24,121 bases of DNA from a virus: the UHGV virus genome UHGV-0136745, one strand, 5' to 3'. Of the stretch, positions 6,152 through 16,882 are shown in pieces (the first letter of the stretch is position 1; every line of letters starts with the position of its first letter). The translations under genes were made by a program, and so were the position numbers. Under the pieces are notes generated by a model. The model did not search any database. It saw only the letters and a program-made list of their open reading frames with translations, and was not told the origin of the DNA.

Positions 6152-6180
6152 ACTATAATAGCTAACTATTCAGTAGTCAA
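6152..6180 (-). promoter_or_regulatory. sigma70-like promoter (reverse strand TTGACT-17 nt-TATAGT) with embedded palindrome AATAG-N4-CTATT
   Basis: Reverse complement reads TTGACTactgaatagttagctatTATAGT. A CCGGG/CCCGG hairpin lies in the predicted 5' UTR (6126..6140) ahead of the SSB-like gene. Confidence 0.5.
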
Positions 6181-8253: not shown

Positions 8254-8270
8254 ACCTTGACCCTCTGTTT

Positions 8271-8294
8271 GCTGCCCTCACTAATGAGGGCAGC
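8271..8294. other. perfect 10-bp stem, 4-nt loop hairpin in intergenic gap
   Basis: gctgccctca-ctaa-tgagggcagc; no adjacent U/A tract on either strand. Lies between the acidic-protein gene and the next leftward gene. Confidence 0.6.
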
Positions 8295-8307
8295 ATATGT
8301 TAAGTGG

Positions 8308-8997: not shown

Positions 8998-9026
8998 ACT
9001 ATAATAGCAAACTATTCACCTGTCAA
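8998..9026 (-). promoter_or_regulatory. sigma70-like leftward promoter (TTGACA-17 nt-TATAGT) with embedded palindrome AATAG-N4-CTATT
   Basis: Reverse complement reads TTGACAggtgaatagtttgctatTATAGT: consensus -35, 17-nt spacer, near-consensus -10. Divergent from the HTH gene promoter. Confidence 0.55.
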
Positions 9027-9029
9027 CGC

Positions 9030-9058
9030 TTTTTATCAAAAAATTAATATGCTACTAT
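9030..9058 (+). promoter_or_regulatory. putative rightward promoter for HTH gene (-10 TACTAT, weak AT-rich -35)
   Basis: gCTACTATTCAcaTATC at 9051..9067 matches the -10 and downstream part of the 12546 and 13921 promoters; upstream is AT-rich (TTTTTA) rather than a good -35. Confidence 0.35.
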
Positions 9059-9089
9059 TCACATATCAATCAGCTAAGGAGTAACCATT

Positions 9090-12522: not shown

Positions 12523-12551
12523 TTGCACACCCCAATATAATAGGCTACTAT
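12523..12551 (+). promoter_or_regulatory. rightward promoter (TTGCAC-17 nt-TACTAT) with embedded palindrome AATAG-N4-CTATT
   Basis: cTTGCACaccccaatataataggcTACTATtcacttatcgaaacgag; about 45 nt are near-identical to 13896..13940. Precedes the first small-gene operon. Confidence 0.45.
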
Positions 12552-12585
12552 TCACTTATCGAAACGAGACAGATGAGTGGGGGTT

Positions 12586-13897: not shown

Positions 13898-13926
13898 TTG
13901 CACACGTAGATATAATAGACTACTAT
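13898..13926 (+). promoter_or_regulatory. rightward promoter (TTGCAC-17 nt-TACTAT) with embedded palindrome AATAG-N4-CTATT
   Basis: cTTGCACacgtagatataatagacTACTATtcagttatcgaaacgag; near-identical to the 12523 promoter cassette. Confidence 0.45.
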
Positions 13927-13957
13927 TCAGTTATCGAAACGAGAGGAGAGACAGAGC

Positions 13958-14903: not shown

Positions 14904-15067
14904 CACTCGCAACTGACATCATGAAACACAGCGGCAAAGCGCCGCTGTCACCACGTAAAAGACATTTCAACACGCATCCGACGTATCTAGAATTACATGA
15001 GCGCCGGAAGACACCAGCACAACGACTGGCTGAATATTGGAGAAAGCATGACTACTATCGCGTTTGA
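14900..15067 (+). CDS. hypothetical small basic protein (55 aa)
   Basis: Start ATG 14900 overlaps upstream stop (ATGA); GAAGGGGTGG upstream. 3' end overlaps the HslV-like gene by 20 nt. Confidence 0.4.
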   Translation: MTLATDIMKHSGKAPLSPRKRHFNTHPTYLELHERRKTPAQRLAEYWRKHDYYRV

Positions 15068-15485
15068 CGGTAAGACGATGGCCTGCGACACCCGGGTTAC
15101 CTGCGGAGACACGTTCTGCAACACCGATACCAAGATATACGAGAACGATGCTTATGTTATCGGGGTCGCCGGTGACGCGGGTGTCGGAACTATGCTCGTT
15201 CAGGTGTCAAATATCCTGACTATGCGTACTTATGAGTATAACTTCCAGGCTATCGTATATGAGAAACATACCCAACGTATCTTCTATGTGTCGTTCGATA
15301 AAAAATGGGAGTCAAATAGCAGCGTTGTCCCAATTGTTGATAGCTACTTCGCCGTCGGTTCAGGGGCTGATTTCGCGCGCGCAGCTATGTATTTAGGTAA
15401 CACCGCAACACGCGCTGTTACGGTAGCTGCAGAGTTCGACATAAACACGGGGGGCAAGATTATTACCAAACCATTATTCGGATAA
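15048..15485 (+). CDS. HslV/proteasome beta-subunit-like N-terminal-nucleophile (Thr) peptidase
   Basis: From ATG 15048 (GGAGAAAG SD): MTTIAFDGK... with Thr directly after Met, as in HslV (TTIVSV...); VIGVAGDAG vs HslV VIAGFAGGTAD; YFAVGSGADFARAAMYLG vs HslV LIAIGSGGPYAQAAARAL. No HslU-like ATPase in the window. Confidence 0.65.
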   Translation: MTTIAFDGKTMACDTRVTCGDTFCNTDTKIYENDAYVIGVAGDAGVGTMLVQVSNILTMRTYEYNFQAIVYEKHTQRIFYVSFDKKWESNSSVVPIVDSYFAVGSGADFARAAMYLGNTATRAVTVAAEFDINTGGKIITKPLFG

Positions 15486-15501
15486 TTCCTAACCGTGGTA
15501 T

Positions 15502-15537
15502 CCTCCAGGTACAGCATACTAAATACGCACCTGGAGG
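15502..15537 (+). promoter_or_regulatory. inverted repeat that would sequester the holin ribosome-binding site
   Basis: CCTCCAGGT (15502..15510) and ACCTGGAGG (15529..15537), 18-nt spacer; the right arm contains the GGAGG SD for the TTG start at 15545. Confidence 0.4.
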
Positions 15538-15544
15538 ATTCATC

Positions 15545-15853
15545 TTGGATAAATTTACTGAAACTGTGACAGGCTGGCTTCTGGCTGCCGCACTAGCTGG
15601 CGGAGTAATAGGCCTACGGCAACATAAAGCCACTATTACCGGCCCTGTCGATGCTCTCTGTTTTCTCGCCACTGGCTTTGCGTGTGCCGTATTCGGTGCG
15701 CCTCTCGCCGCTCAATGGTTCGGTATCGCAGGTGAACGCGAAATAGCGGGCCTTGGGTTCATCATTGCTATTCTCTGGATGCCGATTTATTCCCGTCTCT
15801 CTGGCATTGTCGCCGGAGAATACATCGCACGTCGCGGAGGTAGCAATGACTGA
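15545..15853 (+). CDS. holin-like protein, three predicted TM segments (class I-like)
   Basis: 102 aa; hydrophobic stretches TGWLLAAALAGGVIGL, ALCFLATGFACAVFGAPLAAQWF, IAGLGFIIAILWMPIY; charged C-terminus. TTG start with GGAGG SD. Directly upstream of lysozyme. Confidence 0.55.
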   Translation: MDKFTETVTGWLLAAALAGGVIGLRQHKATITGPVDALCFLATGFACAVFGAPLAAQWFGIAGEREIAGLGFIIAILWMPIYSRLSGIVAGEYIARRGGSND

Positions 15854-16127
15854 GTTATTCTGGTTTGGCGGTATGCTCGCAATCGGGGGCACATCGCTGT
15901 TTAATGTATACCACCCCAGCGTAGATGATGGCCTGTTTGGGCGTGTGCTGTATATCCTCACTGCTATTGTTTGCGCCGCCGGTTGCATCCACCTGCTACA
16001 GGGCAGCATGTCACCGACGCTGCCGGAAACATTAATCACCCTGGTAGCGCTGCGACAGATTCGCCAGTCGTGGCTGCATTACCAGTCGAAAGGAGGGCAT
16101 AAGCGTGTCTCGAAACATTTCAGATAA
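15846..16127 (+). CDS. second holin/antiholin-like protein, two predicted TM segments
   Basis: From internal ATG 15846 (overlaps upstream stop): MTELFWFGGMLAIGGTSLF..., LYILTAIVCAAGCIHLL, basic C-terminal tail. Track ORF starts at 15753. Confidence 0.5.
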   Translation: MTELFWFGGMLAIGGTSLFNVYHPSVDDGLFGRVLYILTAIVCAAGCIHLLQGSMSPTLPETLITLVALRQIRQSWLHYQSKGGHKRVSKHFR

Positions 16128-16590
16128 TGGCTTGCATTTCTGCGCCGAGTTCGAAGGCTTCCGTGGAACTGCGTACCGCGCTACGCCGGATGAGAAGTAC
16201 CTGACTATAGGCTACGGGCATTATGGCGCAGACGTTAAGCCTGGTCAGACTATCACGCCGGGGCAAGGCCTCCTGCTACTCAATCGCGATATGGCTAAGG
16301 CGGTAGCCGCCGTTGATGCCGCGGCGCATCACTCACTGACGCAGGGCCAGTTCGACGCAGTATGCGACCTGGTGTTTAACGCAGGTGCTGGCGTTATCGC
16401 GGCTACTACCGGTACTGGTAAGGCCCTGCGCGCAGGTGACATTGCTACGCTGCGGGCTAAGCTGGCGCTGTTTATCAACCAGAACGGCAAACCGTTACTC
16501 GGCCTGCGCCGCCGTACAGCCGGGCGTCTGGCATTGTTCGACGGTAAACCGTGGCAAGAGGCGGTTGCTATCGGGAGGGCGGTAAAATGA
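16105..16590 (+). CDS. endolysin, GH24 lysozyme (T4 e / lambda R-like fold)
   Basis: N-terminal GLHFCAEFEGFRGTAYRATPDEKYLTIGYGH carries the Glu...Asp...Thr catalytic arrangement of phage-type lysozymes. GTG start with AAAGGAGGG SD. No TM segment, so holin-dependent. Confidence 0.85.
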   Translation: MSRNISDNGLHFCAEFEGFRGTAYRATPDEKYLTIGYGHYGADVKPGQTITPGQGLLLLNRDMAKAVAAVDAAAHHSLTQGQFDAVCDLVFNAGAGVIAATTGTGKALRAGDIATLRAKLALFINQNGKPLLGLRRRTAGRLALFDGKPWQEAVAIGRAVK

Positions 16591-16802
16591 TGGACGAATA
16601 CGAAGGCGTTTAGTATTCTGTTCATGCCAAGTTTTTCGTATTTGCTTACTGGAGGCCATTATGGCACTGCAAGAGTTCACCAACCCAGTTAAATCTCGTG
16701 ACGATATCGACGAGCAGATCGACTACGGCGAAGGTTGACACTTAATACTAATCCGACGATACTTAAATCACCTCCTGTATCACCCCTCTGCTCTCTGTTT
16801 CT

Positions 16803-16853: not shown

Positions 16854-16882
16854 TTGACTATTACTCTGACACCAATTATATT
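16854..16882 (+). promoter_or_regulatory. sigma70-like promoter (TTGACT-17 nt-TATATT)
   Basis: ttGACTagTTGACTattactctgacaccaatTATATTtact, about 30 nt upstream of the 16916 gene and just after the terminator. Confidence 0.45.

What the first reader, a model, noticed from the sequence alone, without database searches (positions are those of the whole stretch)
15502..15537. Holin ribosome-binding site buried in a 9-bp inverted repeat; two holin-like genes
CCUCCAGGU would pair with ACCUGGAGG, which contains the GGAGG SD for the TTG-initiated holin-like gene at 15545. This suggests translational gating of lysis timing, analogous in principle to the lambda S gene upstream structure. A second holin-like protein with two TM segments overlaps the first, compatible with a holin/antiholin pair. 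No spanin genes are evident after the lysozyme.
Basis: partly seen in the sequence, partly recalled or inferred. Interest (0 to 1): 0.4.

Follow-up and report, generated by a model that had tools for sequence, protein, structure and literature searches.

The report
Hairpin locking a phage holin's ribosome site
A conserved RNA hairpin in this Kagunavirus phage hides the ribosome-binding site of the first lysis (holin) gene in transcripts arriving from upstream, and a promoter-like motif overlapping the hairpin's first arm may make transcripts that escape the lock; the principle is already known from phage T4, so this is a new example, not a new kind.

Summary
The inverted repeat is 11 bp perfect (15500-15510 / 15529-15539, 18-nt loop), and its 3' arm holds the GGAGG (15533-15537) that serves the TTG start at 15545. 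The window is a Kagunavirus with the lysis cassette already annotated in relatives: HslV-like protease, class I-like holin, a second holin-like gene, endolysin.

A perfect 11-bp repeat somewhere in 24 kb is not rare by chance. The case rests on four other results:
- The hairpin alone folds at -19.6 kcal/mol (z -5.4).
- This Shine-Dalgarno (SD) sequence is the most occluded of 49 candidate SD-start-ORF sites in the window.
- Four holin lineages, including the genus Dhillonvirus, keep a hairpin over the SD, with compensatory and G·U-preserving changes. That points to an RNA structure on the + strand.
- An extended -10 motif (TGnTATnnT, 15496-15504) is invariant across the four lineages. It would start transcription at about 15511, just past the 5' arm.

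My best reading is a T4 gene e-type device. Read-through transcripts are translationally locked, and locally initiated transcripts are open. The promoter is inferred, not shown.

The lambda S dual-start analogy fails. Spanins lie in the head module in relatives, and no spanin homolog is in the window. This is a new member of a known kind, of modest interest.

The parts
13898..13945 (+). Upstream promoter-like repeat element (TTGCAC-17-TACTAT with an internal TATAAT, plus conserved leader). It is the likely source of read-through transcripts that reach the hairpin.
   Evidence: The scan finds no + strand terminator-like site between it and 15500.
15048..15485 (+). HslV-family (Ntn) protease gene, the last gene before the hairpin. 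The likely true start is ATG 15048 (MTTIAFDG); the stop TAA is at 15483-15485, 14 nt before the 5' arm.
   Evidence: phrog_1040, E 1.2e-39; weak Pfam Proteasome match; the Sciku homolog is 145 aa.
15477..15482 (+). Weak -35-like hexamer TTCGGA (TTAAGA in most relatives), 16 nt upstream of the -10-like hexamer. Inferred.
   Evidence: The same TTATTAAGATA block is kept in a non-coding context in fBC-Eco01 and in L074 while the spacer diverges.
15496..15504 (+). Extended -10-like motif TGGTATCCT (TGnTATnnT). It overlaps the first 5 nt of the 5' arm.
   Evidence: TG, TAT and the last T are invariant across four lineages. Within Kagunavirus the 'n' position (15498) is one of only two balanced polymorphisms in the intergenic region. 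The PWM rank is only moderate.
15500..15510 (+). 5' arm of the hairpin, ATCCTCCAGGT (anti-SD-like CCUCC).
15511..15528 (+). Loop of 18 nt, with 2 inner pairs (GC 15514-15515 with GC 15527-15528). A15511 is the predicted transcription start, 7 nt after the -10-like hexamer.
   Evidence: The loop is nearly invariant within Kagunavirus but unrelated in L074.
15529..15539 (+). 3' arm ACCTGGAGGAT, containing the Shine-Dalgarno GGAGG at 15533-15537.
   Evidence: SD opening energy is 15.1 kcal/mol in read-through RNA and 4.4 in RNA starting at 15511.
15545..15853 (+). Holin-like gene 1: TTG start, 102 aa, three hydrophobic segments (class I-like).
   Evidence: phrog_2359, E 4.8e-29; hydropathy; the same start is annotated in Sciku.
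15846..16127 (+). Holin-like gene 2: ATG start, 93 aa, very basic C-terminus, 1-2 TM segments. It overlaps gene 1 by 8 nt and has its own GGAGG.
   Evidence: phrog_2508, E 2.3e-30; homologous to the second gene of Dhillonvirus.
16105..16590 (+). Endolysin (phage lysozyme, GH24-type), GTG start, with no N-terminal hydrophobic (signal-anchor-type) segment visible by eye.
   Evidence: PF00959, E 4.5e-28; phrog endolysin matches. The absence of a signal-anchor segment is my reading of the N-terminal sequence, not a prediction run.

Best explanation
The inverted repeat encodes an RNA hairpin on the + strand that insulates the holin gene from transcription arriving from upstream.

Transcripts that read through from the upstream operon (promoter-like element near 13900, then the protease gene) contain both arms. 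In them the GGAGG of the holin is held in an 11-bp stem, so 30S subunits cannot bind and holin is not made from these messages.

The DNA for the 5' arm overlaps an extended -10 promoter-like motif (TGGTATCCT, 15496-15504). RNA polymerase starting there would begin at about A15511, the first loop nucleotide. Such transcripts lack the 5' arm, have an open SD, and can be translated from the TTG. Holin output would then be set by this weak local promoter and the weak TTG start, not by the stronger upstream transcription.

In the sister genus Dhillonvirus the same device carries a U-tract, so it should also terminate read-through transcription.

What is shown and what is inferred:
- Shown computationally: the hairpin, its stability, its covariation, and the invariance of the -10-like motif.
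- Inferred: promoter activity, the start site, and the effect on translation and lysis timing.
For: 1. Structure and strength. The stem is 11 bp perfect. The hairpin folds at -19.6 kcal/mol, z -5.4. SD opening costs 15.1 kcal/mol, the highest of 49 candidate SD-start-ORF sites in the window, where the median is 2.2.

2. Conservation as RNA. Four lineages of the same holin family keep a hairpin whose 3' arm holds the SD. They are Kagunavirus, L074/L075 (67% identical holin), Dhillonvirus (about 47%) and L076/L077 (49%). On the structural alignment A3, 92.4% of cells pair against 73.5% in shuffles (0/500). Seven of 12 pairs change on both sides, and slid registers give 47% or less. One-sided changes are transitions that give G·U (L037, L074, Dhillonvirus). 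These keep the helix in + strand RNA and would be C·A mismatches on the other strand.

3. Promoter geometry. C-x-TG-n-TAT-x-x-TC is invariant in all four lineages, while the flanks and the 'n' vary. The position 7 nt after the hexamer falls at or just inside the 3' end of the 5' arm in every lineage, although arm lengths differ. The conserved module boundary, where homology to most relatives begins (about 15433-15468), includes a promoter-sized upstream stretch. The -35-like TTATTAAGATA block is kept in non-coding contexts.

4. Two-state energetics. SD opening is 12-15 kcal/mol in read-through RNA and 1-4.4 kcal/mol in RNA from the predicted start, in five of seven representatives.

5. Read-through is expected. 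The region is a same-strand operon, and the scan finds no + strand terminator-like site between 13650 and 15500.

6. Precedent. T4 genes e, soc, 49 and I-TevI use exactly this logic (PMC3014915).

7. More distant holin homologs also separate the holin from the upstream gene with a hairpin, but as terminator, then TATAAT, then a free SD. Insulating this holin from upstream transcription therefore looks like a general theme.
Against: - No experimental start-site, expression or lysis data exist for these phages in the literature I could search.
- The promoter match in this window is only moderate. With an approximate sigma-70 matrix it ranks 128th of 48,150 positions, and the -35 is poor (TTCGGA). 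The consensus scanner does not list it.
- Part of the -10-like motif lies inside the stem in Kagunavirus, so its invariance there is partly explained by the stem and by SD complementarity.
- The covariation rests on essentially four lineages, so phylogenetic non-independence inflates the shuffle statistics.
- In L074 the hairpin competes with an alternative fold in a longer context (opening energy only 3.1). In L037 it is weaker, at 6.9.
- If the local promoter is constitutive, the device alone does not explain late timing.
Confidence: 0.5

Rival explanations
1. Constitutive translational throttle. There is no internal promoter and every holin mRNA carries the hairpin. The SD is exposed only by rare breathing of the stem, or by an unknown factor or temperature. 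That keeps holin synthesis slow and sets the lysis clock.
For: The hairpin is stable, covers the SD and is conserved. The start codon is also weak (TTG), which fits selection for low output. The promoter match is only moderate. Lambda S has an upstream stem-loop that limits access to an SD.
Against: An opening cost of 12-15 kcal/mol would, by established RBS-occlusion thermodynamics (my knowledge, de Smit and van Duin), cut initiation by many orders of magnitude. That seems too much for an essential gene. This model does not explain the cross-lineage invariance of TG-n-TAT--T outside the stem in Dhillonvirus, or of the -35-like block. In Dhillonvirus the hairpin plus T6 would also terminate most such transcripts.
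Confidence: 0.25
2. Mainly a transcription terminator or attenuator for the upstream operon. The overlap with the SD is a by-product of tight gene packing.
For: In Dhillonvirus the homologous hairpin is a 12-bp stem with a 6-nt loop followed by T6-T7. It is the top terminator-like call of the scanner. Distant homologs have a canonical terminator in front of the holin.
Against: In this window and in all Kagunavirus copies there is no U-tract (UUCAUCUUGG follows the stem), and the loop is 18 nt. The scanner does not call it. A by-product would not be expected to keep SD pairing through compensatory changes in lineages lacking the U-tract.
Confidence: 0.12
3. A DNA-level operator: a palindromic binding site for a dimeric phage or host regulator that controls lysis-gene transcription.
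For: It is a perfect 11-bp palindrome with arms 29 bp centre to centre, overlapping a promoter-like motif. The phage uses another palindromic motif at its early promoters.
Against: Substitutions in relatives keep G·U pairing, which is valid in RNA on the + strand but is a C·A mismatch in the DNA symmetry (L074 has 4 wobbles in 12 pairs). Arm sequences differ between genera while pairing is kept. Arm spacing varies from 3 to 18 nt. The motif occurs nowhere else in the window or in Sciku.
Confidence: 0.04
4. A chance inverted repeat with no function.
For: About 23% of shuffled 24-kb sequences contain at least one perfect repeat of 11 bp or more with a short loop.
Against: Its position is exactly on the holin SD. 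It is near-invariant in 51 distinct Kagunavirus sequences, with less variation than the adjacent coding region. It covaries across four lineages.
Confidence: 0.01

Closest known systems
Phage T4 gene e (lysozyme) translational control; the same logic applies to T4 soc, 49 and I-TevI
   Same: A lysis gene lies downstream of earlier transcription. Long transcripts fold a hairpin that sequesters the SD or start. A promoter lies in the DNA that encodes the 5' strand of that hairpin, so locally started transcripts lack the inhibitory arm and are translated (PMC3014915). The geometry here is the same: a -10-like hexamer overlaps the 5' arm, and the predicted start is the first loop base.
   Different: The T4 promoter is a gp55-dependent late promoter (TATAAATA), which gives true temporal control. 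Here the motif is a host sigma-70 extended -10 type and is unproven. The regulated gene here is the holin, not the endolysin. There is no sequence or phylogenetic relationship.
Phage lambda S gene upstream stem-loop (sdi) with dual-start holin/antiholin
   Same: A short stem-loop immediately upstream of a holin gene controls ribosome access to an SD.
   Different: The lambda stem partitions initiation between Met1 and Met3 of one reading frame to set the antiholin:holin ratio. There is no dual-start motif here. The putative antiholin, if any, is a separate gene, and the stem here is much more stable and covers the only SD.
Dhillonvirus (HK578/SO-1-like) holin leader hairpin
   Same: It is homologous in position and context. 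TGATATAGT overlaps the 5' arm, the 3' arm holds the SD-like GGGA, and the holin begins MDK. It has the same two-holin plus lysozyme cassette.
   Different: It has a 12-bp stem, a 6-nt loop and a T6-T7 tract directly before an ATG, so it is also a canonical intrinsic terminator. The window's version has no U-tract, a long loop and a TTG start.
Generic SD-sequestering leader hairpins (RNA thermometers, translational attenuators)
   Same: An anti-SD-like CCUCC pairs with GGAGG in a cis hairpin.
   Different: There is no Rfam family match and no evidence of ligand, temperature or leader-peptide control.

Membership tests
cis SD-sequestering hairpin (translational occlusion) | A stable stem that includes the SD of the regulated gene | tested here: met
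   The 11-bp stem contains GGAGG. Hairpin energy is -19.6 kcal/mol (z -5.4). Opening energy is 15.1 kcal/mol, rank 1 of 49 in the window.
cis SD-sequestering hairpin (translational occlusion) | The structure is conserved with compensatory change in relatives | tested here: met
   92.4% of cells pair against 73.5% in shuffles (0/500). Seven of 12 pairs have double changes, and slide controls give 47% or less. The data come from four lineages only.
cis SD-sequestering hairpin (translational occlusion) | The stem reduces translation of the downstream gene | not testable with these tools
   This needs reporter fusions or toeprinting.
T4 gene e-type promoter-in-hairpin switch | Upstream transcription reads into the gene and carries both arms | tested here: inconclusive
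   The region is a same-strand operon with a promoter-like element at 13898-13945, and the scan finds no terminator-like site before 15500. There are no transcript data.
T4 gene e-type promoter-in-hairpin switch | A promoter in the DNA encoding the 5' strand, so that local transcripts lack it | tested here: inconclusive
   TGnTATnnT is invariant in four lineages, and the predicted start falls at the end of the 5' arm in each. The motif score is moderate, rank 128 of 48,150, and no start site has been mapped.
T4 gene e-type promoter-in-hairpin switch | The promoter is a T4-type late promoter (TATAAATA, gp55-dependent) | tested here: not met
   There is no TATAAATA in 15470-15545. The motif is of the sigma-70 extended -10 type. 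The element therefore works like the T4 device but is not a member of that system.
Lambda S-type dual-start holin with sdi stem-loop | Two in-frame start codons a few codons apart, giving antiholin and holin | tested here: not met
   The N-terminus is M-D-K-F-T-E-T-V. The only nearby in-frame start-type codon is GTG at codon 8, with no SD. Dhillonvirus homologs also lack a dual start.
Lambda S-type dual-start holin with sdi stem-loop | A stem-loop overlapping the upstream SD | tested here: met
   the lambda description comes.
Intrinsic (Rho-independent) terminator | A G+C-rich stem with a short loop followed by a U-tract | tested here: not met
   In the window the loop is 18 nt, the tail is UUCAUCUUGG, and the scanner does not call it. 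The feature is met in the Dhillonvirus homolog.
Class I holin (three TMDs, N-out/C-in) | A small protein with three TM segments, encoded next to the endolysin | tested here: met
   Three hydrophobic segments by hydropathy. phrog_2359 'holin' match, E 4.8e-29. The Sciku homolog is annotated with 3 TMDs by TMHMM. Hole-forming function is untested.
Rfam RNA families | A match at or above a family's gathering score | tested here: not met
   Only sub-threshold miRNA-like noise, 16 bits or less against gathering scores of 57-84.

The most novel reading that the evidence does not exclude
The roughly 75-nt leader is a portable, self-insulating expression module for a holin. A host-type promoter is nested in the 5' arm of a hairpin. 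The hairpin acts as a translational lock in Kagunavirus and as a lock plus terminator in Dhillonvirus, against all upstream transcription. The lysis cassette could then be dropped into any early or middle operon of a mosaic siphovirus genome without causing premature lysis. The module travels with the holin gene across genera while the upstream genes are swapped.
Probability: 0.35. Interest if true: 0.5.

Novelty: new member of a known kind. Interest (0 to 1): 0.35.

Why it matters
Kagunavirus and Dhillonvirus phages are widely isolated as therapy candidates against uropathogenic and K1 E. coli, yet nothing I could find in the literature explains how their lysis timing is controlled.

Their lysis cassette sits in the middle of a long same-strand run of small early-type genes, not in a dedicated late operon. 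That raises the question of how premature holin synthesis is avoided. A hairpin that locks the holin SD on read-through transcripts answers that question.

If the nested promoter is real, the element is a second, independently evolved case of the T4 gene e strategy, built from host-type signals. It would also give a compact (about 60 nt) part for insulating toxic genes in engineered phages. For annotation, it supports the TTG start and warns that this hairpin should not be labelled a plain terminator.

Tried and rejected
- Rfam search of 15300-15800 at a permissive E-value found nothing meaningful.
- I tested whether the conserved loop sequence is a repeated phage promoter or operator motif. 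There are no further copies in the window or in 37 kb of phage Sciku beyond chance.
- CGTGnTATCCT is not enriched in the window: 21 matches against 18.7 expected.
- The consensus promoter scanner does not list a promoter at the hairpin. It lists a 9/12 site at 15436-15463 inside the protease gene, but that site is not conserved in relatives, so I set it aside.
- The metagenome pattern scan for the 3' arm plus holin start returned 77 loci but no new stem or -10 variants. The non-Kagunavirus hits were unrelated sequences, for example a 12-codon ORF in gut contigs.
- The 'terminator' annotated in phage fBC-Eco01 near this region lies inside the holin gene, not at the hairpin. That paper's 'phage RNA polymerase promoters' are the palindromic repeat noted below, not this element.
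- Dual-start (lambda-like) regulation: rejected, because there is no second start.
- DNA operator: disfavoured by the G·U-type substitutions.
- Translational coupling from the protease gene, considered and rejected by my own inference. Its stop codon is 14 nt before the 5' arm (17 nt in Dhillonvirus, more than 60 nt in L074). By my knowledge of ribosome footprints, a terminating ribosome would not reach the core stem.
- Spanin search in the window by tblastn with the Sciku i- and o-spanins: no hit.

Full report
**What the window is.** The region belongs to a Kagunavirus (Guernseyvirinae), an E. coli siphovirus. The closest GenBank relatives are 85-87% identical over about 70% of the window. 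The 1.9 kb around the finding matches 122 phage records. The local gene order is:
- an HslV-family Ntn protease (ORF 14997-15485, likely true start 15048; phrog_1040);
- holin-like gene 1 (TTG 15545-15853; phrog_2359);
- holin-like gene 2 (ATG 15846-16127; phrog_2508);
- a phage lysozyme (GTG 16105-16590; PF00959).

Relatives annotate the same cassette as class I-like holin, class II- or III-like holin or antiholin, and endolysin.

**Checking the observation.** The inverted repeat exists and is longer than reported. ATCCTCCAGGT (15500-15510) and ACCTGGAGGAT (15529-15539) form 11 perfect pairs around an 18-nt loop. GGAGG (15533-15537) lies in the 3' arm, 7 nt before the TTG.
- The RNA of 15490-15565 folds at -22.7 kcal/mol, z -3.24.
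- The hairpin alone folds at -19.6 kcal/mol, z -5.43, with 0 of 200 shuffles as good.

A perfect 11-bp repeat with a short loop is not rare in 24 kb, since 23% of shuffles have at least one. The repeat alone therefore proves little. What is unusual is where it sits. I computed the energy needed to unpair the SD for 49 SD-spacer-start-ORF candidates in the window. This one is the highest, at 15.1 kcal/mol, against a median of 2.2 and a 95th percentile of 8.4.

**Conservation within Kagunavirus.** In 37 IMG/VR Kagunavirus loci, phage Sciku and about 40 metagenome contigs, the intergenic region is almost invariant. Among 51 distinct sequences only two intergenic positions show balanced polymorphism: 15492 (A/C) and 15498 (G/C). 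The adjacent holin codons vary much more.
- Most relatives have ATCCTCCAGTT, which gives a U·C mismatch at the tenth pair and a hairpin of -14.7 kcal/mol.
- The window has G there, which makes a G-C pair.
- The Salmonella phage LSPA1-like locus L027 changes the partner to A, which makes a U-A pair. It also extends the stem into the loop (-21.6 kcal/mol).
- L037 has A to G, giving G·U.

**Conservation across lineages.** Searching with the holin protein found three further lineages.
- Dhillonvirus (holin about 47% identical) has AGTCCCAGTGAG, a 6-nt loop, CTTACTGGGACT, then T6-T7, then ATG. The SD-like GGGA is in the 3' arm.
- L076/L077 (49% identical) has the same design with a U-A to C-G swap.
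- L074/L075 (67% identical) has a cassette with only one holin gene. Its stem is 12 pairs with four G·U wobbles, and its loop is unrelated.

On a register-correct alignment (A3), 92.4% of cells form standard pairs against 73.5% in shuffles (0/500). Seven of 12 pairs change on both sides, and sliding the partner by 1-3 columns drops pairing to 47% or less. The one-sided changes are exactly those that give G·U in + strand RNA; on the other strand, or as DNA symmetry, they would be C·A mismatches. This favours an RNA structure in rightward transcripts over a DNA operator. The caveat is that there are effectively four independent lineages.

More distant holin homologs (about 38% identical, in larger phages) have a different order: a canonical terminator, then TATAAT, then a free SD.

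**A second conserved signal.** Across all four lineages the columns C-x-T-G-n-T-A-T-x-x-T-C are invariant, while the neighbouring columns, the 'n' and hexamer positions 4-5 vary. This is the pattern of an extended -10 promoter, TGnTATAAT. The versions found are:
- TGGTATCCT in the window (15496-15504);
- TG(C/G)TATCCT in other Kagunaviruses;
- TGATATAGT in Dhillonvirus.

In Dhillonvirus the TAT lies outside the stem, so the stem does not explain its conservation. The polymorphic 15498 is the 'n' position. A -35-like block is also kept: TTAAGA in most relatives and TTCGGA in the window, with a 16-nt spacer. It is conserved in fBC-Eco01 and L074, where it is non-coding, while the spacer between it and the -10 diverges. 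Homology between mosaic relatives begins about 77-110 nt upstream of the start codon, enough to include a promoter.

The base 7 nt after the hexamer is A15511, the first loop nucleotide. In each lineage that position falls at or within 3 nt of the end of the 5' arm, even though arm lengths differ. RNAs starting there have an SD opening energy of 1-4.4 kcal/mol. Read-through RNAs need 12-15 kcal/mol, except L037 (6.9) and L074 (3.1 in the long context).

The weakness is motif strength. With an approximate sigma-70 matrix (frequencies recalled from the literature) the window's site ranks 128th of 48,150 positions. The common Kagunavirus version would rank 27th, Dhillonvirus 24th and L076 8th. 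The consensus scanner does not report the site.

**Context for read-through.** The + strand from about 12.5 kb to the end of the window is one long run of same-direction genes. A repeated promoter-like element lies at 13898-13945. The scan finds no + strand terminator-like site between 13650 and the hairpin. Transcripts carrying both arms are therefore expected. The protease stop codon lies 14 nt before the 5' arm. My inference, not tested here, is that a terminating ribosome would not melt the core stem.

**Most likely mechanism.** The element is an insulator of holin expression. Read-through transcripts are translationally locked by the hairpin, and in Dhillonvirus they are also terminated. 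Transcripts started at the nested promoter lack the 5' arm and are translatable, from a weak TTG codon. This is the logic shown experimentally for T4 gene e, soc, 49 and I-TevI (PMC3014915). The hairpin and its selection are well supported. The promoter and all functional effects are inferred. I put about 0.5 on the full model and about 0.85 on 'a selected RNA hairpin that occludes the holin SD'.

**Rivals.**
- Mainly a terminator: about 0.12 for this window, because there is no U-tract and the loop is long.
- A DNA operator: about 0.04.
- Chance: about 0.01.

**Comparison with known systems.**
- The lambda S analogy is only partial. Lambda's upstream stem-loop controls access to the SD for Met1 and partitions starts between Met1 and Met3. 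Here there is no dual-start motif.
- The element works like the T4 gene e device but is not a member of that system, because it has no T4 late promoter.
- No Rfam family matches.
- Papers on Kagunavirus and Dhillonvirus that I could search are genome descriptions with no analysis of this element.

**The other claims.**
- Holin-like 1 has three hydrophobic segments.
- Holin-like 2 has one strong segment (34-50), a weakly hydrophobic Gly/Ala-rich N-terminal segment, and a C-terminal tail of net charge +5. Relatives disagree on whether it has one or two TMDs. It is homologous to the second gene of Dhillonvirus and absent from the L074 lineage. This suggests gene 1 is the essential holin and gene 2 an accessory or antiholin. 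That assignment is untested.
- Spanins are not missing from the phage type. Sciku has an overlapping i-/o-spanin pair in the head module. No homolog lies in this window, and by synteny the pair would fall just beyond its end.

**Verdict.** This is a real, conserved regulatory hairpin on the holin ribosome-binding site, and most likely one half of a promoter-in-hairpin switch of the T4 gene e type. It is a new member of a known kind, of modest interest (0.35).

Noticed in passing
window 6154-6172, 9000-9018, 9043-9061, 12536-12554, 13911-13929: A palindromic motif TATAATAG-NNN-ACTATTCA occurs 5 times, against 0 expected in shuffles. It overlaps promoter-like sites on either strand. It resembles the PHIRE consensus tgAATAGTa-ccTATTat-T that the fBC-Eco01 paper assigns to a 'phage-encoded RNA polymerase'. 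No RNA polymerase gene is annotated in the relative Sciku, so it looks more like an early promoter/operator family.
   Followed up: partly
window 15048-15485 (ORF listed from 14997): An HslV/proteasome-like Ntn protease gene lies directly upstream of the lysis cassette, with a likely start MTTIAFDG that exposes a Thr. Some Kagunaviruses carry it and others have an unrelated small gene at this position, so it is a mosaic boundary just upstream of the holin leader. Its role is unknown.
   Followed up: partly
L074 2001-2813 and L075: A related phage lineage (holin 67% identical) has a cassette of one holin followed directly by the lysozyme, with no second holin-like gene.
   Followed up: no
L040 1403-1437 (Dhillonvirus ZCEC10) and L041, L043-L056: The Dhillonvirus holin ATG follows directly after the T-tract of a canonical terminator-like hairpin whose 3' arm holds the SD-like GGGA. 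A near-consensus extended -10 (TGATATAGT) abuts the 5' arm.
   Followed up: yes
window 8270-8295: A second perfect 11-bp inverted repeat, TGCTGCCCTCA/TGAGGGCAGCA, with a 4-nt loop. It gives the second-highest SD occlusion in my scan, but the ORF there (63 aa, + strand at 8297) may not be a real gene, and I did not check it. The repeat may be a terminator.
   Followed up: no
window 16735-16763 and 16854-16882: Two near-consensus sigma-70 promoters (TTGACA-17-GATACT and TTGACT-17-TATATT) lie immediately after the endolysin gene and head the next block of small genes.
   Followed up: no
window 15855-15905 (holin-like 2, residues 4-20): The first hydrophobic stretch of holin-like 2 (LFWFGGMLAIGGTSLFN) is Gly/Ala/Ser-rich and only weakly hydrophobic. 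From memory it resembles the releasable TMD1 of pinholins, although by eye the endolysin N-terminus shows no signal-anchor-type hydrophobic segment.
   Followed up: no
metagenome loci: One metagenome contig carries the window's exact 82-nt variant of the leader (G at 15509, A at 15513 and 15521). This variant is otherwise rare, found in 2 of 51 distinct sequences.
   Followed up: no
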